DNA of 64,000 nucleotides from a virus (taxonomy: Duplodnaviria > Heunggongvirae > Uroviricota > Caudoviricetes), in IMG/VR virus record IMGVR_UViG_3300028591_000080, positions 159,745-223,744 of that record. One strand, 5' to 3'. Numbering within the stretch: position 1 is the first letter of the stretch; every line of letters begins with the position of its first letter. Shown here one piece after another: positions 29,036-60,287 of this stretch. The position numbers were made by a program, and so were the translations under genes. The notes beneath the pieces were generated by a model. It worked only from the letters and a program-made list of their open reading frames with translations. It was not told where the DNA came from and ran no database searches.

Positions 29036-29254
29036 TTACTTTCCTAACTCATTTAATTTATAATCTAAGAATGCTTCAATATCACAATGATCAGATGCGT
29101 TTAATACACCTTTATCATATAAATTTAAAGCTATAGTTTTTAATAATTCAATTAACTCAATCGAGCTTTCAGATCCTTCTAAAGCTTGATATAAAAACTT
29201 AGTTAATTTTTCATTAAACATTTTAGTCTCCCCAATTAGATTGATACTCAGCAA
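29036..29254 (-). CDS. hypothetical protein (72 aa)
   Basis: ORF. Confidence 0.4.
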   Translation of the reverse strand: MLSINLIGETKMFNEKLTKFLYQALEGSESSIELIELLKTIALNLYDKGVLNASDHCDIEAFLDYKLNELGK

Positions 29255-46614: not shown

Positions 46615-46624
46615 AATATATCCT

Positions 46625-47435: not shown

Positions 47436-47475
47436 AAGTAGAAACTCCTTACAGTATAATTTAGCAATCTAAATA

Positions 47476-48765
47476 TTAACTTGTATGTTCGACATTATAT
47501 CTTGTAGTTTGATCACTTGCAAATTTAATTAAATCTTCCTTATTATTTTTTAAGATTCCACTATAAACTTCAATTAATGTCATCTCTAATGCAGTTCTAA
47601 TTTGTTTTCCTTTATAACCTAAAGCAATCATATCATTACCATCAACTGCTAATTGATTTAAAGAATAACAACCGCTTTCAAATACTAAATTAATAACTTC
47701 TGTTGAATTAAAATAATATCTGTTAATAGCGTCAATAAATACAAAAGCATCTTGAATTTCAAGTAATTTTCTTACTAGCCATTCAGCATCTTTATTAGAA
47801 TAACCATATGTATCAACTAATCTATGACCTAAAGCTCCAACACTGTCTGAGTCATCAAGATTAACCTTTCTAACTTCTCTACTTAATACTTTAATTAATT
47901 TTGTATCTTTTGTTGAAAATTTTAAACGAGTTAAAATAGCTTCAGTTTGTTCAGGAGTTAAGTATGAACAAATTCCAATAAAGTTATCAACATAATGATC
48001 AGTCACAAGCTTAAATAATTGCTTATTTAAGTACTTAAATTCAGGAATAATATGATAAATAATAGCACCAGGCATAAATCCTTGCATTAAATCACCAACA
48101 GTCTCATAATCAAAGATTCTAATAATCTCATCATGGATTCTTTCTGCAGAAATACTATCTAATAAATCTTCTTGGAAAAACATTGCGTACATAGTTCCAT
48201 TCTCAATATGGAAATTATACTTGCATGCAAATCTAAGACCACGCAAGATTCTTAGAGCATCCTCTTTAAATCTTTCTTTAGGGTCTCCAACTGCACGAAC
48301 AATACCTTCTTTTAGGTCCTTTAATCCACCAAATGGGTCAATTACAGTATCACCGCTGTTATATGCCATCGCGTTGATAGTAAAGTCACGTCTAGCTAAA
48401 TCTTTTACAATATCTTTAGTAAATTCAACAGATTCAGGGTGTCTATTATCTTTATATTCGCCATCAATACGATATGTAGTGATTTCAATATTCTCTTCAT
48501 TGTATCTAACTGTTACAGTTCCGTGCTTTTCTCCATTGTTATTAATGATAGGATAATCTTTAAATACTTCTTTAATTTCATCAGGAGTCGCATTAGTAGT
48601 TAAGTCAATATCTTTAATTGAATGACCTAATAAAAGGTCCCTTACCGCTCCGCCGACAATATAAGCTTCATATCCAGCAGTTTCAAGTTTATTAAAAACA
48701 AATTGTACAATATCTTTTTGCTTAGCTGTAAGTAAATCAAATAAATTATTTGACACTTTAATCAC
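47476..48765 (-). CDS. cca: tRNA nucleotidyltransferase (CCA-adding enzyme)
   Basis: Pol-beta-type head YIVGGAVRDLLLG ... DIDL ... RDFTINAMAY; 429 aa. Confidence 0.75.
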   Translation of the reverse strand: MIKVSNNLFDLLTAKQKDIVQFVFNKLETAGYEAYIVGGAVRDLLLGHSIKDIDLTTNATPDEIKEVFKDYPIINNNGEKHGTVTVRYNEENIEITTYRIDGEYKDNRHPESVEFTKDIVKDLARRDFTINAMAYNSGDTVIDPFGGLKDLKEGIVRAVGDPKERFKEDALRILRGLRFACKYNFHIENGTMYAMFFQEDLLDSISAERIHDEIIRIFDYETVGDLMQGFMPGAIIYHIIPEFKYLNKQLFKLVTDHYVDNFIGICSYLTPEQTEAILTRLKFSTKDTKLIKVLSREVRKVNLDDSDSVGALGHRLVDTYGYSNKDAEWLVRKLLEIQDAFVFIDAINRYYFNSTEVINLVFESGCYSLNQLAVDGNDMIALGYKGKQIRTALEMTLIEVYSGILKNNKEDLIKFASDQTTRYNVEHTS

Positions 48766-49546
48766 CTTCTTTTAAATAATATTTTTTAAAGCGTAATAAA
48801 CTTTCATTTGTAAAAGTTATTTGTCCTGCTTTATATAACTCAACTATAAAAGGACGAGTTAACTGTTTAAAATCTTTGTTTGAAAATAAAACATATTCTA
48901 GATTATTATTTGAACAGTAGGTTTCAGCCGCTTGCTTTTTTAATAAAACAACCTCTGAACTTAACTCTCTAAAATCTTTAATCTCATATAAATATTTATT
49001 ATCGACCAAAAAGTCTGGTCTATATTGATGGATAGTTCCACTGGTATCACTATAATAAATGGTCATAGTTTCTGCTGATTTAATTGTATGATTTTCATTT
49101 AACATTTTATAGATAAATGATAATTCAACAAGAGACCTAAATAGATATCCAGAATACCAACCAGCATAACCACGACCATTAACTGGGTTATCTTCAGTAA
49201 ATTTATGTGGATTATTTATTCCTTTTGCAAAATAATGATGATTAGCTTTTCAATCATCACTCTTAAAACGTTCTGTCAAAGACTTACCTAATTGTTTCTT
49301 ATTATATTCTGCCCAAGTATAAGTACGTATACCTTTTTGATAATCTTCATGTTGACGACAGCCTCTACATAGGTCTCTATCATCTCTTTTTTTAAAATTT
49401 AATTGTTGTGAATGATAATTTATCTTATAAATTTTACCGCATACATCACATCTAACTTCGATAATATCACCAGTACTAAATCCTACCCTTCCTTTTTTAA
49501 ATCCATGTGCACCTGCTTGTAATATTCTTGGTTTACTAAGTATCAT
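48758..49546 (-). CDS. zinc-finger plus PD-(D/E)xK nuclease-domain protein (homing-endonuclease-like), about 262 aa, with one in-frame TGA
   Basis: Track ORFs 49250..49546 and 48758..49105 share a frame, separated only by TGA; N-terminal CDVCGK...CRGCRQ, C-terminal YRPDFLVDNKYLYEIKDF (PD...EIK). Confidence 0.55.
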
Positions 49547-49706
49547 AAATAATCTCCTTATTTTTTATTCATTTAATTTAGCAAACAAAACGCAGCCACC
49601 AACAAAATAGGTTACTCTATATAAATAATACAATAATTCCTAATATAAGTGTAACACTTGTTATAACTAATTTAACAATATCATTAATTAATTTTAATTT
49701 CATAAG

Positions 49707-49907
49707 CTAATCCTCCAGACCTTCTTTTGCACCTAAGCAGCATAGACCAATAAATAAGATAGAAAGCACATGTATACTATATAAAAATAACCAATACCAA
49801 CTTCCTAATACAATACTTAAAACAATAGGAAGACCAGCAAAACTAATACTAATTGCAAATACTAAAAACATTATTAATAGCGCACATATTTTTTTAAGTG
49901 TTTTCAT
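49707..49907 (-). CDS. small two-TM membrane protein (66 aa)
   Basis: Two hydrophobic helices. Confidence 0.45.
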   Translation of the reverse strand: MKTLKKICALLIMFLVFAISISFAGLPIVLSIVLGSWYWLFLYSIHVLSILFIGLCCLGAKEGLED

Positions 49908-49919
49908 TACTTAATCTCC

Positions 49920-50213
49920 TTATAATTTAAAAATTTGTTCTTCGTCTATGCTCATACTTTTTTCTGTCTTAGTATAAACATCATATAAATCCGAACCAGC
50001 GTCTTCATCGTAATATTCAACTCTAATAGAATGATATTCTTTGCTTAATTTATATTTTGAAGTTCCTATTGATTTAACTTTTGAACTCTTTTTTGCATCT
50101 TCAAGTATCTTGTTAAATTCTGCATCACGTTTTTCAACTGAAGTAAAATAATAAGTATGTGTATAATCTGGATAACTATAATAGACTTCAATAATTGGAA
50201 CGATTTTAGTCAT
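49920..50213 (-). CDS. hypothetical protein (97 aa)
   Basis: ORF. Confidence 0.45.
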   Translation of the reverse strand: MTKIVPIIEVYYSYPDYTHTYYFTSVEKRDAEFNKILEDAKKSSKVKSIGTSKYKLSKEYHSIRVEYYDEDAGSDLYDVYTKTEKSMSIDEEQIFKL

Positions 50214-50589
50214 CGTTATTCTCCCATTTTTTCCAATAGATCTTCTCTAGTTCACCGAGTCTTGAATAAACTTGATAAAGATTATCCATATCATCATATA
50301 ATTCTGGATCATCATTATCTTTTAATATATCTAAATTGAAGTCTTCAGTTAATCTTTTTTTACTTAAAATCTTTTCATATTGACTTAAGGTAATTAAAGC
50401 TTCCTTAAGTTTACTTAGATTCCAATTACGTCCAACAGTTGTTAAATGTGTAAAAGCACCTTTACCGTTATCATTTGGATTCATATAAACGGTACTTCTA
50501 TCTCTAACGACTATTTCTTGTTCAGATAAATAGTCAATAAATTCAATTAATGTCATTTCTCTTTCTGGCATATTAATTATTCTCCTCAA
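50206..50589 (-). CDS. hypothetical protein (127 aa)
   Basis: ORF. Confidence 0.45.
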   Translation of the reverse strand: MRRIINMPEREMTLIEFIDYLSEQEIVVRDRSTVYMNPNDNGKGAFTHLTTVGRNWNLSKLKEALITLSQYEKILSKKRLTEDFNLDILKDNDDPELYDDMDNLYQVYSRLGELEKIYWKKWENNDD

Positions 50590-50755
50590 TCTTTGTGTTT
50601 AAAGTATTAGATACTTCTTGTTTAATATTTAAATAACCATTCTCATCAATATCTTTTTCTGTAAGAATTTTATAATCTCCACAGCCTGTTGGAATCATAT
50701 CTCCAGGATGTAAGTCTGACCAAAATACTTGGCCATATCTATACTCTAATTTCAC
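50573..50755 (-). CDS. hypothetical protein (60 aa)
   Basis: ORF. Confidence 0.35.
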   Translation of the reverse strand: MKLEYRYGQVFWSDLHPGDMIPTGCGDYKILTEKDIDENGYLNIKQEVSNTLNTKIEENN

Positions 50756-51152
50756 CTGATTTAACTCTCCTAATTATTTCATTCATTAATTCAGTAGATG
50801 AGAAAGCAGATAAAATGTTTGTATCGTACTTTCTGCAAACATAAACATTAGCTTTACTTACCATAGCATCTGAAGTATGAACCCAGCAAGAAAATGATAT
50901 AAAGTAACTTTCAATTACTCTTTGCTTAGTTTGTTTATCTGTGTAACTAATTATCATTTTATCTTCATCTAATATAAAATCTCTTTCAGCTAGATCTGGA
51001 CCATATTCACCTTCATACAAGCATTCATAGTTTCTAGAAATACATGGACCTGTAATAAAGAAGTTAAAATCTTTTAATGGATATTTATCTTTAAATGTTG
51101 TACCAGTATCATCTATTTGTTTTTCAAAAATCTCATCTAAAAAATACCCCAT
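50739..51152 (-). CDS. hypothetical protein (137 aa)
   Basis: ORF. Confidence 0.45.
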   Translation of the reverse strand: MGYFLDEIFEKQIDDTGTTFKDKYPLKDFNFFITGPCISRNYECLYEGEYGPDLAERDFILDEDKMIISYTDKQTKQRVIESYFISFSCWVHTSDAMVSKANVYVCRKYDTNILSAFSSTELMNEIIRRVKSGEIRV

Positions 51153-51154
51153 AG

Positions 51155-51544
51155 TTATTCACCACTTTCTTTATATCTAATAGAATTAAATAATATTTTT
51201 AAAGCATCTTCTGTTGTTTTAAGTGTTTTTGGACACCAGTAAGCAATTTCATCTAATTCTGTAATACCTCCAATGTTTCCACCATTATCTCTATATTCTC
51301 TGTATGTTTCTTGTAAAGGATAATATTCTCTTGTCTTTAATGTTTTATCTACTAAATATGCTACATGTGAAGCTTTATCAACACAACAACTACGTCCTTC
51401 TACTTTTTGAAAATACTCTTCAAGAATATGTTTAAATATAGAACGTCTATCTTCAAAAATATCTTGGTACATATCCAGATCTTCATATTTAGTATTATCG
51501 ATAATTGCTTTTATTACTTCAGCTAGTCCATCTTTTATATCCAT
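51155..51544 (-). CDS. hypothetical protein (129 aa)
   Basis: ORF. Confidence 0.45.
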   Translation of the reverse strand: MDIKDGLAEVIKAIIDNTKYEDLDMYQDIFEDRRSIFKHILEEYFQKVEGRSCCVDKASHVAYLVDKTLKTREYYPLQETYREYRDNGGNIGGITELDEIAYWCPKTLKTTEDALKILFNSIRYKESGE

Positions 51545-51546
51545 AA

Positions 51547-51753
51547 TTAGTTACCTCTATATTCTTTTTTATCTGGATTATCTATAATAATACCACAATT
51601 AGGACATTTAATATATGGAGCATCACCATCATACATAGGATATGGAGATGTTTTTATATCTTCATTTTGATAAGTAAAAACACAATTACAGTGTGCACAC
51701 TCAGTTATATATGTTTTTGTATTTTTTGATTTAACTTCTAAAATTTTATACAC
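51547..51753 (-). CDS. zinc-ribbon small protein (68 aa)
   Basis: CAHCNC ... CPNCG. Confidence 0.4.
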   Translation of the reverse strand: MYKILEVKSKNTKTYITECAHCNCVFTYQNEDIKTSPYPMYDGDAPYIKCPNCGIIIDNPDKKEYRGN

Positions 51754-51755
51754 AA

Positions 51756-52034
51756 TTATTTACCTCCATCAAGTGATATTTCTCCTGTATCAATATCTAT
51801 TGCTAAGTTTGGATAATCTTCTAAATTCCAAAGTAATGATAAATTTTCTTTAAAAATATTTTCACGCTTTGTATTATACTTTTTCTTGCTTTCAAATAAT
51901 TTTTTCTTTGGTAAATTTCTAAAGAATACAAGACAAGTCAAAGCCATTCCAGAATCCCAATTACCATCACATGCTCTTAGATTACCATATTGATCATAGT
52001 CATTTATTGTCCAATCTTTTACTAATTTAAACAT
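51756..52034 (-). CDS. hypothetical protein (92 aa)
   Basis: ORF. Confidence 0.4.
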   Translation of the reverse strand: MFKLVKDWTINDYDQYGNLRACDGNWDSGMALTCLVFFRNLPKKKLFESKKKYNTKRENIFKENLSLLWNLEDYPNLAIDIDTGEISLDGGK

Positions 52035-52036
52035 AA

Positions 52037-52435
52037 CTACTCACTCTTATCCTCTTTTAGCCACCAAGTTTTCTTATAGTCCTTTAAATATAAAACATAG
52101 GTTGCTACATCATAAACACCATAGTGTTGTTTAATTTCAAAATTACCATCTATAAATACTGGTTTTGCAAAATATAATTGATGCCAATCATCCATAATAT
52201 ATATTCCATCAAATGCTTTGAAAAACACATTTAATGGACAACCTAGTTTATCTTGTAAATCGACAACCTCTTTAATAGTTTCTAATGCATCAACCATCTC
52301 ATATGCATCTTTGCAAAAGTCTTCATCATGAGTATCTTTATAAGCATCAAAAAAATTAGAATTACCACTACTATTTAAGCAGCATAAGTTATCTATTTTA
52401 TTATAAGCTAATTTTAAATCCATTCTATTCACCAT
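52037..52435 (-). CDS. hypothetical protein (132 aa)
   Basis: ORF. Confidence 0.45.
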   Translation of the reverse strand: MVNRMDLKLAYNKIDNLCCLNSSGNSNFFDAYKDTHDEDFCKDAYEMVDALETIKEVVDLQDKLGCPLNVFFKAFDGIYIMDDWHQLYFAKPVFIDGNFEIKQHYGVYDVATYVLYLKDYKKTWWLKEDKSE

Positions 52436-53024
52436 CTTCTTTTTTCATATAAGGCTCAATATTTCTAACTAATGATTCAATCCATAAATCAAACATTCTT
52501 AATTGACTTGCATACTCATAGTAAGTATGTTGTGCGTATTTAATTAATGGATAAACAAAATCTTCAGTTTCTTTTAAATATTTTGCTTTCTTTACTTCTG
52601 AGAAATTAAATAATGTTGAAAGATTATGTGTTCTATCTGCAAGTTTAACTAATGTTGCTATTTCATTATTTTGAATTCCTTCATAATATAATACATTATT
52701 ATATCCTTTAGGTTTAGATAAAGCTAGAACGGCACTTACAATCTTTGAGCTAAAAGTAGCAATAAGCTTTGCTTTAAGTTGTTCATCCTCACTATCCTCT
52801 AATACATCATGTAATAAGGCCACAGCTAATATATCATCATCTCTAATTCCTAACTCAAATAATAATGATGCAACCTTAACTGGATGCTCTATATATGGAG
52901 TTACATTATCTTTTCTAAAAACACCTTCATGAGCTTTCTCAGCTAATGCAAATGCTTTAAGAGCTGTATATTTTTCAGCTCCCATTAATTTTCCTCTAAA
53001 TAATTCAAATGATGTTTTGCTCAT
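52425..53024 (-). CDS. HD-domain phosphohydrolase, RelA/SpoT-type small alarmone hydrolase-like
   Basis: TPYIEHPVKVA ... AVALLHDVLEDS matches the (p)ppGpp hydrolase HD motif arrangement. Confidence 0.55.
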   Translation of the reverse strand: MSKTSFELFRGKLMGAEKYTALKAFALAEKAHEGVFRKDNVTPYIEHPVKVASLLFELGIRDDDILAVALLHDVLEDSEDEQLKAKLIATFSSKIVSAVLALSKPKGYNNVLYYEGIQNNEIATLVKLADRTHNLSTLFNFSEVKKAKYLKETEDFVYPLIKYAQHTYYEYASQLRMFDLWIESLVRNIEPYMKKEDGE

Positions 53025-53100
53025 AATATCACCTCTTATATCTTATATATATTATTATACAACAAAAAAGAAGGTATGTAAACACCTTCTTTAATCTTTT

Positions 53101-53652
53101 TTATTCACCAGCTTCTAACCAAAGTTCAAAACTATCAAAATAATCATAGATAGCTTTATTCTCAGTTTTAAGTGATTCCACTTTATATAATACATCTTGT
53201 ATATCTTCTAAGATGGATTTTGCTCTTGAATAATCTTCATTATCTAACCAATTCTTTACATTGTCGATAGCTTCATTAAACTTTTGATAATCGTCAAATG
53301 ATTTACAGTTCTTTTTAGCTTCTTTTAGGCTTTCTAACTCTTCATAAGCTTTGTCTATTTCTTCCATATCTTTATCTGAATATTCACAAAGTCTTTCCAT
53401 GATCTCTTTTACTAAATTCATATCATGTTCTTGTTTTAATTCAAAAGGAATAGAAAAATATTCAGCTCTTTCAAAATCATTAAATTTATCAATTTGCTCT
53501 TCAGTATATCCACCATGAGCTTTCCACGTATGATTATATAAGCTTAAGATGTACTCAGTTGCATAATCACGACCACAAGTATATCCATCAAAAAATTCTA
53601 TCTTATCTTTGCCTTTAATCGCAACACCTTTAATTGTAATTTCTCTTCCCAT
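53101..53652 (-). CDS. hypothetical protein (183 aa)
   Basis: ORF. Confidence 0.45.
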   Translation of the reverse strand: MGREITIKGVAIKGKDKIEFFDGYTCGRDYATEYILSLYNHTWKAHGGYTEEQIDKFNDFERAEYFSIPFELKQEHDMNLVKEIMERLCEYSDKDMEEIDKAYEELESLKEAKKNCKSFDDYQKFNEAIDNVKNWLDNEDYSRAKSILEDIQDVLYKVESLKTENKAIYDYFDSFELWLEAGE

Positions 53653-53658
53653 AATTAA

Positions 53659-53856
53659 TTACTCCATTAAATCATCAAGTCTATACAAACTTTCAATAAG
53701 TGTCTCTATCTTATCTTTATCTTCTTTACGAATCATAAAAATAATACCACTAAAAAGGAAGTTACAACATTGAGACTCTTCATTAAGATTAGCTAGATAA
53801 TAATAGTTGTACTTATATAATACATCTGTAATTAATTCTTTAGTTTCTTTAGTCAT
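53659..53856 (-). CDS. hypothetical protein (65 aa)
   Basis: ORF. Confidence 0.35.
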   Translation of the reverse strand: MTKETKELITDVLYKYNYYYLANLNEESQCCNFLFSGIIFMIRKEDKDKIETLIESLYRLDDLME

Positions 53857-53879
53857 TGAAATCTTCCTTTTCAGCTATT

Positions 53880-54908
53880 TTACTTATTTTTCTCATTTTT
53901 CTTTTTTCTTTCTAAGCATTCATCAATAAAGTCTTCTTTATTTAATACTCTTACACACTTGCCATATTGATAAGTTCCAGGTAATGGTAATCCCGGGATT
54001 TGAGAATCATTTAAGATACATTCAAACTTAACAACACCTTTTTCATCAACATAAGGCTCTTCACCTTCTGCTACCTTAGCATTATAGAATGCTTGGAATT
54101 CTTTACATACATCATGAGGATTCATCTTATTCTTACAAGATTTTACTAAGATATGATATCCACCAGATGTCTCAACTACAACATAATTTCCTTTACCATA
54201 AAACTTATTAAAAGTCTCAGTTAAGAATGAGAAATATTTTTCTTTAAACCATGCTGGAACATCTAAGTCAAAGTCCATCCAATAGTTTGATCCTTTGCAA
54301 TTAGCCTTTAAATGTTTTACTGCACTTTCGATATTACCATAAGTTTGATATGATTGTAAGTTATCTTCTAATGATTTACCATTTAACATAGCCTTGATGA
54401 TTGCATCACCAGTATCATCTAATTTATGAATTAATTGTCTTGCAACCTTGATATCGTCACAAGGGTTTACATAGAAAATTGTTACTAATGCCTTATCTGG
54501 TAATGGTTGGCCTTCAGTAGTTAAATAAGCTTCCTTATTAACTTCAAATCTTCTAACATGTTGTAAGAACTTGAAGAAAGTCCAGTTAGTTGCATTATCA
54601 ATTACACTTGCACTATGAAACTTAGCTAATCTTAATGTTTGTGTTGCTAAGAACTCAGTTTCATTGCTTGCCATACCTAATGTTGCTTGTTCTTCTTTTG
54701 TTAATTTTTTATGTCTACAAACGAAAACCATTGAATAAGATTCATTAACCTTTGGCTTTTGAATTACATGGTCGAAAAACCATTTTAATTCCTTCTCATC
54801 TGCTACTACATTATAAACTTCTTTTGTCATAATATCACCTGCTTTATCTTTCTCCACCACTGTATGTAAAGTCATACAGAACTTATTTACATTTATATTA
54901 TAACACAA
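53880..54908 (-). CDS. archaeo-eukaryotic primase (AEP)/PrimPol-like protein
   Basis: DxD motif (WMDFDLDV) followed by the sGxGxH motif (VVVETSGGYHILV); the true start is probably the internal Met MTKEVYNVV. Confidence 0.45.
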   Translation of the reverse strand: MCYNINVNKFCMTLHTVVEKDKAGDIMTKEVYNVVADEKELKWFFDHVIQKPKVNESYSMVFVCRHKKLTKEEQATLGMASNETEFLATQTLRLAKFHSASVIDNATNWTFFKFLQHVRRFEVNKEAYLTTEGQPLPDKALVTIFYVNPCDDIKVARQLIHKLDDTGDAIIKAMLNGKSLEDNLQSYQTYGNIESAVKHLKANCKGSNYWMDFDLDVPAWFKEKYFSFLTETFNKFYGKGNYVVVETSGGYHILVKSCKNKMNPHDVCKEFQAFYNAKVAEGEEPYVDEKGVVKFECILNDSQIPGLPLPGTYQYGKCVRVLNKEDFIDECLERKKKNEKNK

Positions 54909-54932
54909 TAATTTAATTATGTAAATATCTTT

Positions 54933-55205
54933 TTAATTAAATTTAATTTTTATTCCGTTACTTGTTAATATTGTTAAAATTTTTGGCAAAATATCATTTA
55001 ATAAATCATTCTCATCTTCAAACTGATCTAAATATTCATCAGTTAAAAATGGTTCAAATAAGGCTCTAATATCATTATCACTCATATCGCCTGGAACGAT
55101 ACAAGTATTTCTTACTCCTAAGATCATTTGATCAATAGCAGCCTTTTTTGCCTCAGCTTCGTCAGCATCTAATCCTTCTAATAACTTGTCTAGATTCATA
55201 GCCAT
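54933..55205 (-). CDS. hypothetical acidic protein (90 aa)
   Basis: ORF. Confidence 0.4.
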   Translation of the reverse strand: MAMNLDKLLEGLDADEAEAKKAAIDQMILGVRNTCIVPGDMSDNDIRALFEPFLTDEYLDQFEDENDLLNDILPKILTILTSNGIKIKFN

Positions 55206-55261
55206 TCACCTCTCATTAGTTATATTATAATATACAATAAAATAGTTTGTTTGTAAATATT

Positions 55262-55882
55262 TTAATGATATTTCTTATAAGTTAATGAAAATTCTTCTCG
55301 TCCAATTCGATAATATCCATTATCAGAAACAACTATTGCATCACCATATTCAAGTTTACAATCTTCTGCTTCACACCATTCATTGCAAATCGTCCAACCT
55401 AAAGCTTTACCTATAGTTGTATCTACAATAATAACTTTTCTTACTTCAGCTGGTGTTGGACAAACTAAGAAATCTCTAGTTGAATTTGCCATCATATCTG
55501 CAAATTCTTCTCTTTCTTTTATGTCTCTTATTGTAGATAAAAATTTACTAAGATTTAATAAACTTTTACCATCATGAACTCCAATAGGATATGCATTTCC
55601 TATATTATCATGAACTCTTTTACTACTCCAAGTATAAGCATCTAATAAATTATTAATTAATAATTTTCCATCTAAAATTCTTAAAACTGTTCTATACTCA
55701 AGTTCATCATAAATTTGTCCATTTGGATTTTCTTTAGTTTTAATCGCTTGAGTATAAATCTTTCCTATCAAACCTAATTGATTCCAGCTTGGTAATAATA
55801 TATTATCAATAGGTAATTTTATATAAGGCTTAGCCATATATCTAAATTCGCTTAAAATTTTATTTGTTTCTTCTTTTTTCAT
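55262..55882 (-). CDS. hypothetical protein (206 aa)
   Basis: ORF. Confidence 0.45.
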   Translation of the reverse strand: MKKEETNKILSEFRYMAKPYIKLPIDNILLPSWNQLGLIGKIYTQAIKTKENPNGQIYDELEYRTVLRILDGKLLINNLLDAYTWSSKRVHDNIGNAYPIGVHDGKSLLNLSKFLSTIRDIKEREEFADMMANSTRDFLVCPTPAEVRKVIIVDTTIGKALGWTICNEWCEAEDCKLEYGDAIVVSDNGYYRIGREEFSLTYKKYH

Positions 55883-55888
55883 AAATGT

Positions 55889-56353
55889 TTACCTTTTCTT
55901 AAATAATTCTTCAATATCTTTTTTAATTAATTCATCATTCTTTTTTCTAAGCTCTTCATCAATTCCGTCTGATGTTGCTTCATATAATATTTCATCAAGC
56001 TCTTCCTCTGAATAACCAGGATATTTAATTTTACAATCTTTTATACAGTCTTGTATACCTAGATAATCTTTTAAATAGCTACAATATTGAAGCAATTTAT
56101 TTCCAGCTGGTATATCATAGTATACTACTGTTTCTCCTGTCTTTGGATTGTTAAATACTTTCTTAAACTTGTCTAATCTAGGTCCAGTCTGCTTCCTCCA
56201 TTGTAAAAATGGGCATTCTGTACCTCCAACAGAACTACATTCAGCTCCATCACCGGTACAGAAATAACCTTCTGGAATAACTTCTTCTGCTTTATCTATA
56301 ATAGATTTAATTGGTGGTTTTCTATATTGATGTATTACTTTATATTTACTCAT
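55889..56353 (-). CDS. hypothetical Cys-rich protein (154 aa)
   Basis: ORF. Confidence 0.45.
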   Translation of the reverse strand: MSKYKVIHQYRKPPIKSIIDKAEEVIPEGYFCTGDGAECSSVGGTECPFLQWRKQTGPRLDKFKKVFNNPKTGETVVYYDIPAGNKLLQYCSYLKDYLGIQDCIKDCKIKYPGYSEEELDEILYEATSDGIDEELRKKNDELIKKDIEELFKKR

Positions 56354-56936
56354 GATGCTTTACCTCAAATGCGGCTTTCTTTGTCTTATTAAATACTCCA
56401 GAGTGTCCATATTGAGAAAGGTATACATACTTATCTTTCATCTCATCTAATTTTTTCTTAGTATTAAAACGATTCATCCATCCACCATTAATGAATTCTA
56501 GAGTACAACGTCTAATATATAAATGCCAAGTAAAAACTTTCTCTACAGCATCTTTGAATTCTTTGTCATATTGAGTTTCTAATTGATCTACATCGTCATA
56601 GCCATAAAGCATATAATGATGTTTATCTGGTGCTATTACTTCTAATCGATTTCCAGTTAAACTTCCATCATAAAGATTGACTAAAAATGAAGATCGTAAT
56701 ATAAAACCAGATAATACTTCAAAACAAGGACAGTCTTTTGGACTTAAATCTTTTTGAAAAATCTCAAATTGTTGTGTCACACTTTCGCCTTGATAACAGT
56801 TAGAGTAATATCTTAATTGTTCTTTAAAATAATGTCTGATCACTTGTCCGCTTGGAGCTAAGTTTACTTTTGGACTGTAAAGATCTATTTTTATTCCTCG
56901 TGTTCTAGTTAATTTATCCATAATAAAAACCTCCAA
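56346..56936 (-). CDS. hypothetical protein (196 aa)
   Basis: ORF. Confidence 0.45.
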   Translation of the reverse strand: MEVFIMDKLTRTRGIKIDLYSPKVNLAPSGQVIRHYFKEQLRYYSNCYQGESVTQQFEIFQKDLSPKDCPCFEVLSGFILRSSFLVNLYDGSLTGNRLEVIAPDKHHYMLYGYDDVDQLETQYDKEFKDAVEKVFTWHLYIRRCTLEFINGGWMNRFNTKKKLDEMKDKYVYLSQYGHSGVFNKTKKAAFEVKHHE

Positions 56937-56984
56937 TAGTTAATATATAATACAATAATTGGTGGACTTAAATCCACCAATTAT

Positions 56985-57263
56985 CTAAATATTTAACTTT
57001 TCAATTAAATCATCTATAGCATCTTCCACTTCATCGACACCATCAAGCTCACCATCATCAGGATCTGCAGAGATATCGTCAACTAGTGAATAAATATTAT
57101 TTAAATCACTAACTATATCTGCATGACTTACAGTCTCATAATCATCAATAGCAATTTCAGAATGACTCTTATTAATCACTATATTAAAATTATAAGGACA
57201 ATTTTCTTCAATAAACTTTTTAAGTTTATCTTCAAAATCAAATGTTAATTGTAAAGCTGACAT
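56985..57263 (-). CDS. hypothetical highly acidic protein (92 aa)
   Basis: ORF; Asp/Glu-rich C-terminus. Confidence 0.4.
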   Translation of the reverse strand: MSALQLTFDFEDKLKKFIEENCPYNFNIVINKSHSEIAIDDYETVSHADIVSDLNNIYSLVDDISADPDDGELDGVDEVEDAIDDLIEKLNI

Positions 57264-57272
57264 TAATTACAC

Positions 57273-58538
57273 CTACTTCCAAGTTGCTTGAACTTTTGCA
57301 ATTTCTTTTAAGCCTTTTTCAGCATAAGCTAAGTTCTTAACTTTGAATGAGAAACCAGTTCCTCTTTCTTTGTTATAGTTATCTGACTTGACCACAATAC
57401 CCTCATGTTGAGCGTATTGCTTCCATAACTTTTCATTTGCTGTTGGAATATGAATAATAGCCTCTTTGTTCCAATATACATTTTCAGCATATTTTACTAA
57501 AGAATCAACAGTATCAAATTTGCTACCCATATCTTCAACGGTCTCAACTAATGGTACACAATTTAATCCTAACTTATCTGCAACTTCATGCATTTTAGGA
57601 TATGGATATTCTACCCATTGTCCATTTTCAAAACCTTTCATTCTGAATACAAACCATTGAACTTGCTTATATCCATAAATATTTTCTTGAATACCAGGGC
57701 CAACTTGCTCACCTTGAATCATTAATCTAATTCCAGTTTTCTTTAAATAAGCCTTTAACTTATTTGCAATATCATATCTTTCAGCTGTTGCCCAGAATAC
57801 TTTTGAAGTATCATCAACTCTATCAAATCTGTTGTTTCTTGAACATACATAGAAAGCATCTTTCTTCTTTGCATCTAATGAGCATGTGAATGATTGACCT
57901 TCCATCTTAGCTGTAATATAAGCTTTAGTTCCTGGGAACATAGAAATAACACTCTTATAATTTTGAATAGTTGTTTCATCAGACTTAGAAATAATTTCAG
58001 TTGGGAAGTTACCTTTAGAGAACTTTCTCTTTCGGTTCTCCATGTAGATATTTCCGATCCATCTAGTTAACTTATGCTTTAAGAAGAACTTGATAATTCT
58101 AGGAATCTTTGGCATCTTCTTAGGTGATGCGTCTTCGGCTGGCTCATACTTTCTAATATTTAACTTATCAGTTACATCTGTTCCAGCTTTTAAGTTTTCA
58201 GGTAATCCTGCTTCAGCTAATGTTACACATAAACCCCAAGACTTAACTCTTTCACCAGAATCTGTTCCATCTTCATTTGCTTTCTTACCCATAGTCATGC
58301 ACTTAATTAAGAAACCTTGTAAGTCTTCTCTATAGCATCTCTTTCTTAAGAATTCCCATTTTTCTTCTATAGGTAAAATACTGTCAGCTTCAATGAATAC
58401 CATTTTATCACCAACATTTACAGTATTAGGAACAATACATTCATAAGCATTTTCTTCAAAGGATACATAACAAATTCTATCCTTTTCAAACATCTTTCCT
58501 TTACTAGCTACGGTAACAATTTTAGCCATATCTCGCAT
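57273..58538 (-). CDS. ATP-dependent polynucleotide ligase of the RNA-ligase (Rnl) family
   Basis: Motif I ITAKMEGQS (KxxG), motif IV QHEGIVVKS, motif V FSFKVKN; a separate DNA ligase exists at 25828..27159. Confidence 0.5.
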   Translation of the reverse strand: MRDMAKIVTVASKGKMFEKDRICYVSFEENAYECIVPNTVNVGDKMVFIEADSILPIEEKWEFLRKRCYREDLQGFLIKCMTMGKKANEDGTDSGERVKSWGLCVTLAEAGLPENLKAGTDVTDKLNIRKYEPAEDASPKKMPKIPRIIKFFLKHKLTRWIGNIYMENRKRKFSKGNFPTEIISKSDETTIQNYKSVISMFPGTKAYITAKMEGQSFTCSLDAKKKDAFYVCSRNNRFDRVDDTSKVFWATAERYDIANKLKAYLKKTGIRLMIQGEQVGPGIQENIYGYKQVQWFVFRMKGFENGQWVEYPYPKMHEVADKLGLNCVPLVETVEDMGSKFDTVDSLVKYAENVYWNKEAIIHIPTANEKLWKQYAQHEGIVVKSDNYNKERGTGFSFKVKNLAYAEKGLKEIAKVQATWK

Positions 58539-58567: not shown

Positions 58568-59509
58568 TTATACAATAAAATCTTCTTTTTTATAGCCATT
58601 TTTATAAAACCAATCTAAATATTTCTGATAGTCTGACTCAGTTAAAATTTTAACATTATTATTTATTGCACACCAGTATTTCGCTTCTACTAGACCAGAA
58701 TTTTCTGCATCGAATGGATTATACCAAACTCCATGCTCATTAATAAAACATTTGCCTTTTATCTCAACCAACTGGCCTTTAATACTAAAGTCTGGGTAAT
58801 ATTCATGAGTGACTCCATCATAATAATAAATCAATTTTATAGGTTCACGTATAATTTCTATATTATTTTTTATACAATATAAATATAAACATAACTCAGG
58901 AAAAGAATCAAATGATATATTTTTATAATTAAATTTATTTGATAGTCCGTGTCGTACACCATAGCGTAATTCCATAGTATCAAAAGCTTTAGTTTTAAAA
59001 ATATCTAATTCAAATGGATGAGATACGCCATATTTAGTTTGCATGCCACCCTCCCTAAATTCAGCCAACTTAAGTGGATTATCAACACCATATTTTTTAA
59101 TACAAGTATTTTTATATGATTCTTTATAAGTATCCGTTTTAGAATAATGTGTTACACCAAAATGTTCTAAATAAGTTTTTTCTTTTGTAAGTTTGACTAT
59201 CTCTGCTTTTGATGGGTTATCTACACCATACTTTTTAATATTTGATTCTTTTATTTTTTGTTTTATAGTATCAGCTGCAAAAGCGTTAGTTACTCCATAT
59301 TTTTTTAAACAAGTCTGTATATAAGCTTGCTTATACAATATTTTATTTTCTTCATTAGTATGTCTTGAAATATTATACTTTTGTAAAACTCTTAAGATTC
59401 TTGGGATGAAATGACAATTAAAATGAGTACCAGTATTGCTATCAGTATGAGTTTTATAATATTCGATTATTTCTAATTCTTCTTGCTCAGTAAATTCTTT
59501 TCTAGCCAT
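58568..59509 (-). CDS. tandem-repeat (KKYGVxNP x6) protein with C-terminal PD-(D/E)xK nuclease-like domain (homing-endonuclease-like)
   Basis: Six roughly 30-aa modules (CLKKYGVTNAF, NIKKYGVDNPS, LEHFGVTHYS, CIKKYGVDNPL, QTKYGVSHPF, ELRYGVRHGL); C-terminal HEYYPDF...LVEIKG resembles the nuclease domain of 48758..49546. Confidence 0.5.
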   Translation of the reverse strand: MARKEFTEQEELEIIEYYKTHTDSNTGTHFNCHFIPRILRVLQKYNISRHTNEENKILYKQAYIQTCLKKYGVTNAFAADTIKQKIKESNIKKYGVDNPSKAEIVKLTKEKTYLEHFGVTHYSKTDTYKESYKNTCIKKYGVDNPLKLAEFREGGMQTKYGVSHPFELDIFKTKAFDTMELRYGVRHGLSNKFNYKNISFDSFPELCLYLYCIKNNIEIIREPIKLIYYYDGVTHEYYPDFSIKGQLVEIKGKCFINEHGVWYNPFDAENSGLVEAKYWCAINNNVKILTESDYQKYLDWFYKNGYKKEDFIV

Positions 59510-59566
59510 GTCGTGTTCTCCTTAAAAATAAAAGGTTAGATGAGAACACGACTAATCATCTAACCT
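59510..59566 (-). promoter_or_regulatory. 5' leader hairpin/terminator with loop complementarity to the downstream SD region (pseudoknot or attenuator) for 58568..59509
   Basis: Stem aggttagatga/tcatctaacct plus U-run; loop gtcgtgttc(tc) is the exact reverse complement of gagaacacgac, which overlaps the AAGGAG RBS. Confidence 0.5.
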
Positions 59567-59689
59567 TGTATATAAAAATATCCGAAGATATAATTACTTA
59601 ATATTATACAATTTATTTTTGCCGTGTTCTATATAGTCTTTCAACTACATATAATTTAGCAGATCATTTTTTAATATTTTTTTAATTTT

Positions 59690-60268
59690 TTAATGTTTTT
59701 TCTTACCATCAAGTAGAGCATACACAGAAGAATTATTATATTTATATTGTCCATTTAACTCTTGATCTACTTTAATTAGCCCTTTTTTAACATAAGCACA
59801 TAAGGTAGGTCTAGTAATATGTAATATTTCCATTACTTCCTCTGCTTTTAAACTTCTATTATAGTAATATTTTATTGCATTATTCATATTTATCCTATCA
59901 CAAGAATTTACTGTGTTACTTGATGCTAGATCAACTTCATGCATGAATTGATTTAGTTGATTTTCAAATTCAATTTTATTTTCTATTGTCTCTGGTTGAT
60001 ATAATGCATACCAAAAATTTACTGTAAAATAACCAGCATATACATTATTACATCTACCACATCCGCTAGGAACATTTATATAATCTTCATCCGCAATTAT
60101 TTCACCTTTGTCTTGTCTTTCTTTTATTTTTAAACAGTATTCATAAATACCATTATAGCCAGACTCTGATGCAGGTCTACGTCCGAATCTAGCATAATAG
60201 TCATTCATGACTTTTTCTAATGCAACCGTTTTGGGGTAATTTAAATTTAATTTTTCTGATAAATTCAT
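59690..60268 (-). CDS. DNA-binding protein with C-terminal MerR/AlpA-type helix-turn-helix
   Basis: VMEILHITRPTLCAYVKKGLIKV helix-turn-helix, similar to 34706..35077. Confidence 0.45.
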   Translation of the reverse strand: MNLSEKLNLNYPKTVALEKVMNDYYARFGRRPASESGYNGIYEYCLKIKERQDKGEIIADEDYINVPSGCGRCNNVYAGYFTVNFWYALYQPETIENKIEFENQLNQFMHEVDLASSNTVNSCDRINMNNAIKYYYNRSLKAEEVMEILHITRPTLCAYVKKGLIKVDQELNGQYKYNNSSVYALLDGKKKH

Positions 60269-60287
60269 ATCTTAAAAATCCTTTCTT

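What the first reader, a model, noticed from the sequence alone, without database searches (positions are those of the whole stretch)
47476..58538. tRNA-repair toolkit: CCA-adding enzyme plus Rnl-family ligase (and candidate end-healing enzymes elsewhere)
A complete CCA tRNA nucleotidyltransferase (47476..48765) and a KxxG/EGxVVK/KxK nucleotidyltransferase distinct from the KxDG DNA ligase (57273..58538) are present. The window also holds a calcineurin-like phosphoesterase (30132..31148) and a P-loop kinase (39565..40080). Those are the end-healing activities of bacterial Pnkp-type RNA repair. Such sets let phages reverse tRNA cleavage or 3'-end trimming inflicted by anticodon nucleases and related defences.
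Basis: partly seen in the sequence, partly recalled or inferred. Interest (0 to 1): 0.55.

Follow-up and report, generated by a model that had tools for sequence, protein, structure and literature searches.

The report
Phage CCA enzyme and nick-sealing ligase
An uncultured giant phage carries a real tRNA CCA-adding enzyme and a real nick-sealing RNA ligase, as many giant phages do, but the window holds no complete kit for mending cut tRNAs, because the proposed kinase belongs to an NAD-recycling operon.

Summary
All four genes exist at the stated coordinates, with the stated motifs. The gene at 47476-48765 is a Firmicute-type class II CCA-adding enzyme without an HD domain. The gene at 57273-58538 is an Rnl5-family (DraRnl/NgrRnl) RNA ligase. 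It has an N-terminal OB domain and no C-terminal domain, and its predicted fold matches NgrRnl over the full length (TM 0.83). Rnl5 enzymes seal 3'-OH/5'-PO4 nicks in duplexes. They are not the Rnl1/Rnl4 type that seals anticodon loops and works with Pnkp.

In relatives the ligase and CCA genes lie close together in 4 of about 7 lineages. One relative (L025) has a compact cluster: Pnk-like kinase, Rnl5, Rnl1, CCA-HD and a homolog of the window's phosphoesterase. That supports a tRNA-maintenance group that includes the phosphoesterase.

The window's kinase does not fit. It sits inside an NAD salvage operon, as in two other lineages, and it has Tyr in place of the Arg of the Pnk-defining Asp-x-x-Arg motif. 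No Rnl1 and no true Pnk was found in about 80 kb of this phage.

Context: this is a jumbo phage that reads TGA as Trp. It also encodes ribosomal protein bL9 and an alarmone-hydrolase-like HD protein, and just outside the window a tmRNA. A close relative also has a Thg1-like enzyme.

The parts
47476..48765 (-). Class II CCA-adding tRNA nucleotidyltransferase, Firmicute type, with head, neck and body/tail domains and no HD domain. It ends in TAA.
   Evidence: Motifs A, B and D were read in the sequence. The allele is only 49% identical to that of the otherwise 95-98% identical relative L003.
57273..58538 (-). [quoted passage not shown] The protein ends 20 residues after motif V.
   Evidence: Pfam PF09414 plus PF21189. 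phrog_968, full length. TIGR02306. NgrRnl is the best PDB sequence hit. AlphaFold2 model pLDDT 85.5, and Foldseek top hit 5cot at E 1.6e-24 and TM 0.83 over the full target. The catalytic equivalents K211, E277, E379 and K401 are invariant (roles from PMC7261155).
30132..31148 (-). Binuclear metallophosphoesterase of the lambda-phosphatase/ApaH/Pnkp-phosphatase clade, a candidate 3'-end healing enzyme. The substrate is unknown.
   Evidence: A 44% identical homolog lies in the kinase-Rnl5-Rnl1-CCA cluster of L025. Other homolog contexts are variable.
29223..29966 (-). Protein of unknown function directly downstream of the phosphoesterase. Its homolog in L025 lies between Rnl1 and CCA.
   Evidence: No Pfam or PHROG hit. 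blastp/tblastn 27% identity, E 4e-8 to 7e-7, to L025 8647-9267.
52425..53024 (-). Stand-alone RelA/SpoT-type HD hydrolase, like a small alarmone hydrolase. It is a variable insert between the ligase and CCA genes and is absent from L003. It is a possible remover of 3'-pyrophosphate from tRNA or a degrader of alarmones.
   Evidence: Pfam HD_4 1.2e-14. TIGR00691. PDB SpoT/Rel hydrolase domains 3e-14, MESH1 5e-10, (p)ppApp hydrolase. Absence in L003. The tRNA role is inference from the toxSAS literature.
53880..54908 (-). Conserved 342-aa protein of unknown function that travels with the ligase module. Homologs lie directly upstream of the kinase-Rnl5 pair in L025 and in the L024 module.
   Evidence: No Pfam, PHROG, NCBIfam or PDB match. 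Homologs at 53-70% identity in L025 and L024.
39565..40080 (-). P-loop kinase of the AAA_33 (Pnk/PSTK/gluconate-kinase) clade. It was examined as the proposed 5' healing kinase but is assigned to the NAD salvage operon at 37655-44648, not to the RNA set.
   Evidence: Operon: PncA-like, PncB, kinase, GNAT, NrtR-like, NDT-Nudix, PncC, NadE. Homolog contexts with PnuC, NadR-like and NMNAT-like genes. It has D35-x-x-Y38 instead of Asp-x-x-Arg. Fold search does not discriminate.
48758..49546 (-). Homing-endonuclease-like gene (zinc ribbon plus TnsA-like PD-(D/E)XK nuclease), read through one in-frame TGA. It is inserted directly upstream of the CCA gene and is absent from L003.
58568..62966 (-). 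4.5-kb insertion directly upstream of the ligase relative to L003: a DUF7487 endonuclease-like gene, an HTH protein and an 892-aa helicase-like protein.
35214..35660 (-). Phage-encoded homolog of ribosomal protein bL9. It is part of the wider set of translation-related genes.
   Evidence: Pfam Ribosomal_L9_N 2.4e-16 and Ribosomal_L9_C 8.2e-11.

Best explanation
The span holds two genuine stand-alone enzymes that act on RNA ends. They belong to an uncultured, 28% GC phage whose close relatives assemble into contigs of about 245 kb, and which reads TGA as Trp.

1. A class II CCA-adding enzyme rebuilds or completes the 3'-terminal CCA of tRNA-like RNAs. Likely substrates are host tRNAs with damaged ends and the phage's own tmRNA, whose gene ends CCT and so lacks the final A.
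2. An Rnl5-family ligase adenylylates itself on K211 and seals 3'-OH(RNA)/5'-PO4 nicks held in a duplex. It needs no end-healing.

Together with a lambda-phosphatase-like phosphoesterase (plausibly 3'-phosphate removal) and an optional SpoT-like HD hydrolase, they form a loose, dispersed group of genes for tRNA and translation-RNA maintenance. It is not a Pnkp-type heal-and-seal machine. The window encodes no polynucleotide 5'-kinase and no loop-sealing Rnl1. It can therefore plausibly deal with 3'-end lesions and with breaks that carry 5'-phosphate ends (inference: metal-dependent nucleases leave such ends). It cannot complete repair of classical 5'-OH/2',3'-cyclic-phosphate anticodon cuts.

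Shown: the family assignments, catalytic residues, fold, gene neighbourhoods, and the kinase's NAD context. Inferred: substrates, the phosphoesterase's role, and any counter-defence purpose.
For: - CCA enzyme.
- Ligase is Rnl5. Family definition and nick-sealing specificity: PMC4408790. Essential residues: PMC7261155.
- Ligase-CCA proximity in 4 of about 7 lineages, in four different arrangements. L025 has a compact cluster of Pnk-like kinase, Rnl5, Rnl1, CCA-HD and the phosphoesterase homolog.
- Kinase: embedded in the operon PncA, PncB, kinase, GNAT, NrtR, Nudix, PncC, NadE. Homologs lie next to PnuC, NadR-like and NMNAT-like genes. Tyr replaces the essential Arg of Asp-x-x-Arg.
- tmRNA lies 5-5.4 kb beyond the window end on a contig 100% identical to window 59080-64000. 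Its gene ends ...GGTCCACCT.
- The relative L003 also has a Thg1-like gene.
- Jumbo-phage precedent: PMC7824862.
Against: - In the window the genes are 8.5 to 28 kb apart, with hairpin terminator-like sites and promoter-like sites between them (their counts are not above chance).
- Three ligase lineages (L002/L006/L023, L027, L028-30) have no CCA gene within 10 kb, and shared ancestry inflates the co-occurrence count.
- The physiological substrate of every Rnl5 enzyme is unknown (PMC4408790, PMC5397189). The ligase could act on RNA-DNA junctions.
- The phosphoesterase is closer in sequence to lambda phosphatase and ApaH than to the CthPnkp phosphatase, and most of its homolog contexts are uninformative.
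- The kinase's nearest solved relatives are PSTK, CthPnk and T4 Pnk, and one homolog lies 3.7 kb from an RlaP gene. An RNA role is therefore not excluded.
- About 165-180 kb of the genome was not seen and may encode a true Pnk, an Rnl1 and tRNAs.
Confidence: 0.55

Rival explanations
1. The four genes form one complete Pnkp-type heal-and-seal pathway. The kinase phosphorylates 5'-OH ends, the phosphoesterase opens or removes the 2',3'-cyclic phosphate, the ligase reseals the cleaved anticodon loop, and the CCA enzyme restores trimmed 3' ends. Together they reverse cuts made by PrrC- or colicin-type nucleases.
For: - The kinase family's best solved relatives are PSTK, the CthPnkp kinase and T4 Pnk, and it matches phrog_505 'polynucleotide kinase' at 7.5e-7.
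- The phosphoesterase belongs to the same metallophosphoesterase clade as the Pnkp phosphatase domain (phrog_8238 at 3.6e-14; 4j6o at 1e-3).
- L025 shows that such a cluster exists in a relative.
- One kinase homolog lies 3.7 kb from RlaP.
Against: - The kinase has invariant Tyr where RNA-repair Pnk enzymes have the essential Arg of Asp-x-x-Arg.
- It is embedded in an NAD operon in three lineages.
- L025 uses a different kinase that does have Asp-x-x-Arg, plus an Rnl1 that the window lacks.
- Rnl5 enzymes seal duplex nicks and are not described as loop sealers.
- The genes are dispersed over 28 kb.
Confidence: 0.1
2. Housekeeping, not repair. The CCA enzyme exists to mature the phage's own tRNA-like RNAs: the tmRNA, and presumably a TGA suppressor tRNA needed for the code change, whose genes lack an encoded CCA. 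The Rnl5 ligase is functionally unrelated and seals ribonucleotide-ended nicks in phage DNA replication or repair. Their proximity reflects a shared early-gene module.
For: - The tmRNA gene ends CCT rather than CCA.
- TGA is read as Trp, which implies dependence on a suppressor tRNA (Borges et al.).
- bL9 is also encoded.
- In L026 the ligase-CCA pair is followed by the DNA ligase and bL9, and L006 places the ligase between NrdD/NrdG and adenylosuccinate synthase.
- Rnl5 accepts pDNA on the 5' side of the nick, and deleting DraRnl sensitises Deinococcus to radiation.
Against: - No tRNA gene was found in about 80 kb of this phage or in any relative locus.
- L025 clusters Rnl5 and CCA with dedicated RNA-repair enzymes, Rnl1 and a Pnk-like kinase.
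- The host's own CCA enzyme should already mature such RNAs.
Confidence: 0.25
3. The CCA homolog is not a CCA-adding enzyme. It is another class II nucleotidyltransferase, such as a poly(A) polymerase, an A-adding or a CC-adding enzyme, so no CCA repair takes place.
For: - The NCBIfam equivalog score is 0.7 bit below its cut-off (289.3 against 290), and PcnB models also match.
- The body/tail domain match is weak.
- The two alleles are only 49% identical.
Against: - The best solved relatives are bona fide CCA-adding enzymes at E 1e-49 to 1e-56, well ahead of poly(A) polymerases at 1e-35.
- Motif D (E-D-x-x-R) and the loop region between motifs A and B are conserved and nearly identical in both alleles.
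Confidence: 0.05

Closest known systems
[quoted passage not shown]
   Same: - Same domain order: N-terminal OB domain, then the nucleotidyltransferase domain, with no C-terminal appendage.
- Full-length fold match at TM 0.83.
- Lysine nucleophile and the three other essential residues are conserved (K211, E277, E379, K401).
- Also conserved: the N-terminal Arg (R2, matching R4), the F-P...S-K-S/T-D...Q-N stretch, and the stacking Phe (F298).
- Phage homologs of this family are already known.
   Different: - About 80 residues longer, with a basic linker of roughly 40 residues and inserts in the C-terminal half.
- Motif I is K-x-E-G rather than K-x-D-G.
- The equivalent of NgrRnl Arg149 is Thr190.
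- Only about 21% identical.
- Activity has not been tested.
Bacterial class II CCA-adding enzymes of Firmicutes (Geobacillus 1miv, Planococcus 6ibp; NCBIfam PRK13299)
   Same: Same head-domain motifs, RNA-binding neck and tRNA_NucTran2_2 tail, and the same length of about 400-430 aa.
   Different: - Encoded by a phage.
- No HD phosphohydrolase domain, unlike the E. coli repair-type enzyme and unlike the CCA genes of relatives L024, L025 and L009.
- Very divergent between near-identical phage genomes.
- Flanked by a homing-endonuclease-like gene.
T4 Pnkp plus Rnl1 and bacterial Pnkp/Hen1 heal-and-seal tRNA repair
   Same: The overall theme is the same, phage or bacterial enzymes that restore broken RNA ends, and a metallophosphoesterase of the same clade as the bacterial Pnkp phosphatase is present. 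The relative L025 carries Rnl1 and an Asp-x-x-Arg kinase next to Rnl5.
   Different: - The window has no Rnl1 or Rnl4 ligase, no Asp-x-x-Arg polynucleotide kinase and no Hen1.
- There is no fusion or adjacency of healing and sealing genes.
- The ligase is a duplex nick sealer.
RNA-repair and NAD-synthesis gene sets of jumbo phages (Iyer et al. 2021, PMC7824862)
   Same: The inventory is the same: RNA ligases, a calcineurin-like or HD phosphoesterase, a CCA-adding enzyme, Thg1 and NAD salvage genes, scattered through jumbo-phage genomes and read as counter-defence.
   Different: - This is a new uncultured lineage with no near-identical GenBank phage.
- The NAD module is larger (PncA, PncB, PncC, NadE, NrtR, Nudix).
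- It contains a Pnk-clade kinase that lacks Asp-x-x-Arg.
TGA-recoded gut phages (Borges et al., bioRxiv 10.1101/2021.08.26.457843)
   Same: TGA is never used as a stop. In-frame TGA codons are concentrated in a few genes while the rest use TGG. The genome is large and low in GC, comes from animal or human-gut-type metagenomes, and has Firmicute-like genes.
   Different: - Clade membership was not tested.
- The recoded genes seen here are homing endonucleases, a SprT-like protein and unknowns, not obvious structural or lysis genes.
- No suppressor tRNA, TrpRS or RF1 was found in the 80 kb seen.

Membership tests
Rnl5 RNA ligase family | N-terminal OB-like domain preceding the nucleotidyltransferase domain | tested here: met
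   PF21189 at residues 16-86. The AlphaFold2 model aligns to full-length NgrRnl with target-normalised TM 0.83. The family definition comes from PMC4408790.
Rnl5 RNA ligase family | No C-terminal appendage after nucleotidyltransferase motif V | tested here: met
   Motif V K399-V-K401 lies 20 residues from the C-terminus (sequence). Matches to T4 Rnl2, Rnl1/Trl1 and Rnl3 cover the nucleotidyltransferase domain only, at TM 0.3-0.5.
Rnl5 RNA ligase family | Lysine nucleophile and the residues essential in NgrRnl (K170, E227, E312, K326) | tested here: met
   K211, E277, E379 and K401 are invariant in 26 homologs. K211 and E277 align directly to NgrRnl. E379 and K401 are assigned by their motifs IV and V. 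Roles are from PMC7261155.
Rnl5 RNA ligase family | [quoted passage not shown] | tested here: not met
   It aligns with Thr190, and that position is not conserved in the phage clade. The residue is auxiliary, not family-defining.
Rnl5 RNA ligase family | Seals 3'-OH/5'-PO4 nicks in duplexes whose 3'-OH strand is RNA | not testable with these tools
   This is a biochemical property.
Rnl1 family (T4 Rnl1, seals tRNA anticodon loops) | Rnl1-type nucleotidyltransferase domain plus an all-helical C-terminal tRNA-binding domain | tested here: not met
   The window ligase gives no T4 Rnl1 match by sequence or among the top fold matches. A true Rnl1 homolog exists in L025 (2c5u at 4e-14) but has no counterpart in the window or its flanks.
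Class II CCA-adding enzyme | Head-domain motifs A to E, including GGxVRD...DxD, RRD and EDxxR | tested here: met
   PF01743 at 1.4e-42. The motifs were read in the sequence and in the alignment to 7otr (same enzyme as 6ibp).
Class II CCA-adding enzyme | Score above the curated equivalog cut-off of NCBIfam NF009814 | tested here: inconclusive
   289.3 bits against a cut-off of 290.
Class II CCA-adding enzyme | HD phosphohydrolase domain of the multifunctional addition/repair type (E. coli Cca) | tested here: not met
   No HD domain in this protein. Relatives L009, L024 and L025 have CCA fused to HD.
Pnkp-type RNA end-healing: kinase component | P-loop and the general-base Asp | tested here: met
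   G9...G14-K15 and D35 are invariant.
Pnkp-type RNA end-healing: kinase component | Asp-x-x-Arg motif, whose Arg anchors the first phosphodiester of the polynucleotide acceptor | tested here: not met
   The family has D35-x-x-Y38 with Tyr invariant. Tyr38 aligns with CthPnk Arg41. The motif and its essentiality are from PMC3902929. The L025 kinase does have S-D-S-T-R.
Pnkp-type RNA end-healing: kinase component | Fusion or adjacency to the phosphatase and ligase | tested here: not met
   The window kinase lies between a GNAT gene and PncB inside an NAD operon, 8.4 kb from the phosphoesterase and 17 kb from the ligase.
Pnkp-type RNA end-healing: phosphatase component | Binuclear metallophosphoesterase motifs (DxH, GDxxDRG, GNHE, H, GH) | tested here: met
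   D12, H14, D43, D46-R47, N72-H73, H179 and H251 are invariant.
Pnkp-type RNA end-healing: phosphatase component | Specific relatedness or linkage to RNA-repair phosphatases | tested here: inconclusive
   Profile against PDB: lambda phosphatase 2.6e-9, ApaH 2e-5, CthPnkp phosphatase 4j6o 1.1e-3. A homolog sits in the L025 repair cluster. Other contexts are uninformative.
NAD salvage operon (assignment of the kinase) | Conserved embedding among pyridine-nucleotide salvage genes | tested here: met
   Window: PncA-like, PncB, kinase, GNAT, NrtR-like, NDT-Nudix, PncC, NadE. L009: NadR-like, kinase, PnuC. L011/L012: NMNAT-like, PnuC, kinase, PncA-like, NMNAT-like. L022: PncB 5.8 kb away. L007/L008: no such context.
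Stop-codon-recoded phage (TGA read as Trp) | TGA not used as a stop; in-frame TGA aligns with Trp in standard-code homologs | tested here: met
   Stops are TAA 77, TAG 24, TGA 0 in 101 genes. TGA is the commoner triplet off-frame (1512 against 1170 for TAG). TGA codon 143 of ORF 46626-47435 falls on an invariant Trp, and codons 35 and 238 fall on W/F/Y/L columns. A GIY-YIG domain spans a TGA.
Stop-codon-recoded phage (TGA read as Trp) | Phage-encoded TGA suppressor tRNA | tested here: not met
   No tRNA in the window, in 6.4 kb and 10 kb of its flanks, or in relative loci. Most of the genome was not seen.

The most novel reading that the evidence does not exclude
Rnl5 ligase, the CCA-adding enzyme, the lambda-phosphatase-like phosphoesterase and the optional SpoT-like hydrolase together form a kinase-independent tRNA repair route. 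It would be aimed at lesions that leave a 5'-phosphate or that damage the 3' acceptor end: nicks in tRNA stems (inference: such as metal-dependent PIN or Toprim nucleases would make), and trimmed, 3'-phosphorylated or pyrophosphorylated CCA ends. That would give the widespread Rnl5 family its first physiological substrate. In this phage it would protect the tRNA and tmRNA pool on which the TGA-to-Trp code change depends.
Probability: 0.15. Interest if true: 0.65.

Novelty: new member of a known kind. Interest (0 to 1): 0.35.

Why it matters
The physiological substrates of Rnl5 ligases are still unknown. A phage lineage in which Rnl5 repeatedly sits beside a CCA-adding enzyme, and in one relative beside Rnl1, a Pnk-like kinase and a phosphoesterase, gives a concrete and testable lead: Rnl5 may act on tRNA.

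The result also shows a limit of assigning function by fold family. A Pnk-clade kinase that has lost the Arg binding the polynucleotide, and that sits in NAD operons, is probably a nucleoside kinase and not an RNA-healing enzyme.

For annotation, the window must be translated with TGA as Trp. Otherwise several genes next to the finding are split or missed.

Tried and rejected
- A near-identity DNA search of GenBank phages with 47000-59600 found nothing. Protein-level searches found only distant phage relatives, 24-36% identical over most of the query.
- An exact-protein look-up of the ligase gave only a 3.5-kb contig.
- The acidic 92-aa ORF directly downstream of the ligase (56985-57263, with a weak ArdA-like hit) was tested as a conserved ligase partner. 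It is absent from L002 and L006, so this was rejected.
- The promoter and terminator scan gave counts no higher than in shuffled sequence. Only individual strong hairpins (56985-56954, 53092-53067) are noted.
- Rfam at relaxed thresholds found nothing in the apparent non-coding gaps 46550-47520 and 22700-23900. Those gaps turned out to be TGA-containing genes.
- The unknown ORFs between the ligase and CCA genes gave no significant Pfam or PHROG match. In particular there was no match to RlaP, 2H phosphoesterase, HAD-Pnk, KptA, PTH or RtcB.
- The fold search with the kinase model could not separate polynucleotide kinases from gluconate kinases, all at TM 0.6-0.7. Nicotinamide riboside kinase matched only at the P-loop.
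- The second phosphoesterase (phrog_547 type, outside the window) is not a paralog of the 30132 gene.
- tRNA searches in all loci held found only the tmRNA.

Full report
**Setting.** The window is 28% GC, and all convincing genes lie on the minus strand. It has no near-identical relative among GenBank phages. Homologs of its proteins lie on metagenomic contigs of 150-300 kb, so it is part of an uncultured jumbo phage. Contig L017 comes from the same sample. It is 100% identical to window 59080-64000 and extends 6.4 kb beyond the window end. Contig L003 is 95-98% identical over most of 45715-58585 and reaches further still.

- **CCA enzyme (47476-48765).**
  - It has the class II head domain (PF01743, 1.4e-42), the RNA-binding neck, and a sub-threshold match to the Firmicute-type tail domain (23.4 bits against a cut-off of 27).
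  - It scores 289.3 bits against the NCBIfam CCA equivalog, whose cut-off is 290.
  - It is closest to solved bacterial CCA-adding enzymes (6ibp 3.7e-56, 1miv 5.4e-49), well ahead of poly(A) polymerases.
  - It lacks the HD domain of the E. coli-type addition/repair enzyme.
- **Ligase (57273-58538).** It has K211-M-E-G, E379-G-I-V-V-K and K399-V-K401, all invariant in 26 homologs. It differs from the KxDG DNA ligase at 25828-27159.
- **Phosphoesterase (30132-31148) and P-loop kinase (39565-40080).** Both are real.

**What the ligase is.**
- Pfam finds an RNA_ligase domain preceded by the PHA02142 OB domain. PHROGs matches a full-length phage 'RNA ligase' family. NCBIfam points to the DRB0094 family. 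The only solved relatives by sequence are Naegleria NgrRnl entries.
- An AlphaFold2 model (pLDDT 85.5) matches NgrRnl over its whole length (E 1.6e-24, TM 0.83). T4 Rnl2, REL1, Trl1, Rnl3 and DNA ligases match only the nucleotidyltransferase domain.
- The four residues essential in NgrRnl have invariant equivalents here. So do the N-terminal Arg and the stacking Phe. The auxiliary Arg149 does not; it aligns with Thr190.
- The protein ends 20 residues after motif V. It therefore meets the definition of the Rnl5 family (PMC4408790).
- Rnl5 enzymes seal 3'-OH/5'-PO4 nicks in duplexes whose 3'-OH strand is RNA. Their physiological substrates are unknown. Loop sealing of broken tRNA is the speciality of Rnl1 and Rnl4.

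**Is it a toolkit?** In the window the ligase and CCA genes are 8.5 kb apart, separated by about 17 mostly unknown genes and several terminator-like hairpins. Comparative genomics still shows an association. Among loci carrying a ligase homolog, a CCA gene lies close by in four lineages, in four different arrangements:

| Locus | Position of the CCA gene relative to the ligase |
|---|---|
| Window / L003 | 8.5 kb / 7 kb downstream |
| L024 | 1.4 kb upstream |
| L025 | 2 kb downstream |
| L026 | downstream, separated by one 105-aa ORF |

Three lineages lack a CCA gene within 10 kb.

L025 is the most informative. It carries, in order:
1. a homolog of window gene 53880-54908;
2. a 153-aa kinase with the Pnk motif S-D-S-T-R;
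3. Rnl5;
4. a T4 Rnl1 homolog (2c5u, 4e-14);
5. a homolog of window gene 29223-29966;
6. a CCA enzyme fused to an HD domain;
7. two small ORFs;
8. a 44% identical homolog of the window's phosphoesterase.

The phosphoesterase and its downstream neighbour therefore do travel with RNA-repair genes in a relative. By sequence, however, the phosphoesterase is nearer to lambda phosphatase and ApaH than to the Pnkp phosphatase, and its other contexts are uninformative.

**The kinase.** Profile and fold comparisons place it in the PSTK / CthPnk / T4 Pnk / gluconate-kinase clade and cannot resolve its substrate. Two observations argue against an RNA-healing role.

- **Context.** It is embedded, with overlapping or abutting neighbours, in a nine-gene NAD salvage operon at 37655-44648. 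The operon runs PncA-like, PncB, kinase, GNAT, NrtR-like, NDT-Nudix, an unknown gene, PncC, NadE. Homologs at 43% and 63% identity sit between NadR-like and PnuC genes, or among PnuC, NMNAT-like and PncA-like genes. A fourth homolog has PncB 5.8 kb away, but also an RlaP gene 3.7 kb away.
- **Active site.** RNA-repair Pnk enzymes share an Asp-x-x-Arg motif whose Arg is essential and holds the first phosphodiester of the polynucleotide (PMC3902929). This family has invariant D35-x-x-Y38, with Tyr aligned to CthPnk Arg41. A nucleoside acceptor, such as nicotinamide or nicotinate riboside brought in by PnuC, fits better. That is an inference.

No Rnl1 and no Asp-x-x-Arg kinase is present in the window or its flanks.

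**Wider context found on the way.**
- **TGA is read as Trp.**
  - None of 101 genes ends in TGA.
  - The three large 'non-coding' gaps become ORFs once TGA is read through.
  - Four genes encode Trp only or almost only by TGA, while the rest use TGG.
  - A GIY-YIG domain spans a TGA.
  - In the SprT-like gene just downstream of CCA, one TGA aligns with an invariant Trp of standard-code homologs, and two more fall in W/F/Y/L columns.
  - This matches the known phenomenon of recoded gut phages.
- **Other translation-related genes.**
  - In the window: ribosomal protein bL9 and a SpoT-like HD hydrolase.
  - Just beyond the window end: a bona fide tmRNA whose gene ends CCT, and a second phosphoesterase.
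  - In the close relative L003: a Thg1-like enzyme.
- **Variation around the two genes.** The CCA gene is a hotspot. Its two alleles are 49% identical inside 97-98% identical flanks, and the window allele is preceded by a homing-endonuclease-like gene. The ligase is likewise preceded by a 4.5-kb insertion that starts with an endonuclease-like gene.

**Conclusion.** The most likely reading is a dispersed group of tRNA and translation-RNA maintenance genes of the kind already catalogued in jumbo phages (PMC7824862).
- It includes CCA-end rebuilding, duplex nick sealing that needs no healing, and plausible 3'-end dephosphorylation.
- As seen in these 64 kb it is not a Pnkp-type pathway that could reverse 5'-OH/2',3'-cyclic-phosphate anticodon cuts.
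- The main rival reading is housekeeping for the phage's own tmRNA and presumed suppressor tRNA, with the ligase working in nucleic-acid metabolism.

The finding is a new member of a known kind. Its chief value is the repeated Rnl5-CCA linkage, which gives a lead to the unknown substrate of Rnl5.

Noticed in passing
Whole window; clearest at 46626-47435, 21927-22922, 22998-23480, 23490-23774, 17490-18629 and 48758-49546: TGA is a sense codon, read as Trp. No gene out of 101 stops with TGA, and the three large 'non-coding' gaps fill with ORFs when TGA is read through. Four genes encode Trp only or almost only by TGA, while the rest use TGG. One TGA aligns with an invariant Trp in standard-code homologs, and a GIY-YIG domain spans another. 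The window should be annotated with code 4.
   Followed up: yes
L017 983-1357 (equivalent to about 69010-69384, beyond the window end); also L003 3693-4067: The phage encodes a tmRNA (Rfam RF00023, 86 bits) with tag peptide AKSIFNKIANFFRGFGAQRVAALA. The gene ends ...GGTCCACCT, so the terminal A of the CCA is not encoded.
   Followed up: partly
L003 722-1510 (a 95-98% identical relative; beyond the window end): A Thg1-like 3'-5' nucleotidyltransferase (PF04446 2.5e-30; phrog_4717 7.6e-72) lies about 9 kb upstream of the ligase. It is a possible tRNA 5'-end repair enzyme.
   Followed up: partly
Window 37655-44648: A nine-gene NAD salvage operon: PncA-like isochorismatase, PncB, an AAA_33 kinase lacking the Pnk Asp-x-x-Arg motif, GNAT, NrtR-like Nudix-wHTH, nucleoside deoxyribosyltransferase-like plus Nudix, a 327-aa unknown, PncC (CinA) and NadE. 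No NaMN adenylyltransferase was recognised.
   Followed up: partly
Window 47476-48765 compared with L003 18239-19525: The CCA gene is a variation hotspot. The two alleles are 49% identical, with residues about 58-135 nearly identical and the rest divergent, inside flanks that are 97-98% identical at the DNA level. This suggests allele replacement or recombination, perhaps linked to the adjacent homing-endonuclease-like gene.
   Followed up: partly
Window 58585-63113, about 52046-52954 and about 48673-49616: Three insertions relative to L003: (a) DUF7487 endonuclease-like gene plus HTH protein plus 892-aa helicase-like protein; (b) SpoT-like HD hydrolase plus a 132-aa ORF; (c) the zinc-ribbon/TnsA-like nuclease gene. 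Mobile or accessory cassettes flank both genes of the finding.
   Followed up: partly
Window 35214-35660: A phage-encoded homolog of ribosomal protein bL9 with both domains. bL9 homologs also lie near the ligase-CCA genes in L024 and L026.
   Followed up: partly
Window 52425-53024: A stand-alone RelA/SpoT-type hydrolase domain with intact HD, ED and ADRxHN motifs, like a small alarmone hydrolase. It could degrade alarmones or remove the pyrophosphate that toxSAS enzymes add to tRNA CCA ends.
   Followed up: partly
Window 28118-28555: A minimal 145-aa GGDEF domain protein (PF00990, 7.3e-22) with a GGDEF signature and no sensor domain. It is a possible phage nucleotide cyclase.
   Followed up: no
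Window 53880-54908: A conserved 342-aa protein with no detectable family or structural relative. Its homologs sit next to the kinase-Rnl5 pair in L025 and in the L024 module, so it may be an unrecognised member of the RNA module.
   Followed up: partly
L025 4470-12328 (IMGVR_UViG_3300001598_001490): A compact phage RNA-repair cluster with two ligases side by side: a Pnk-like kinase with Asp-x-x-Arg, Rnl5, a T4 Rnl1 homolog, an unknown gene, CCA-HD, and a lambda-phosphatase-like phosphoesterase.
   Followed up: partly
Window 31214-32785, 23853-24893, 24897-25391 and 44679-45227: Other auxiliary genes: an SPFH/flotillin-like membrane protein, a DAHP/KDO8P-synthase family enzyme, dCMP deaminase, and a radical SAM protein whose homolog precedes the ligase in L006.
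   Followed up: no
L017 3555-4307 (equivalent to about 66060-66812, beyond the window end); L003 6265-7017: A second, unrelated 250-aa metallophosphoesterase (phrog_547, 9.9e-39; no Pfam hit) lies 3 kb upstream of the ligase in L003. It is another candidate end-processing enzyme.
   Followed up: partly
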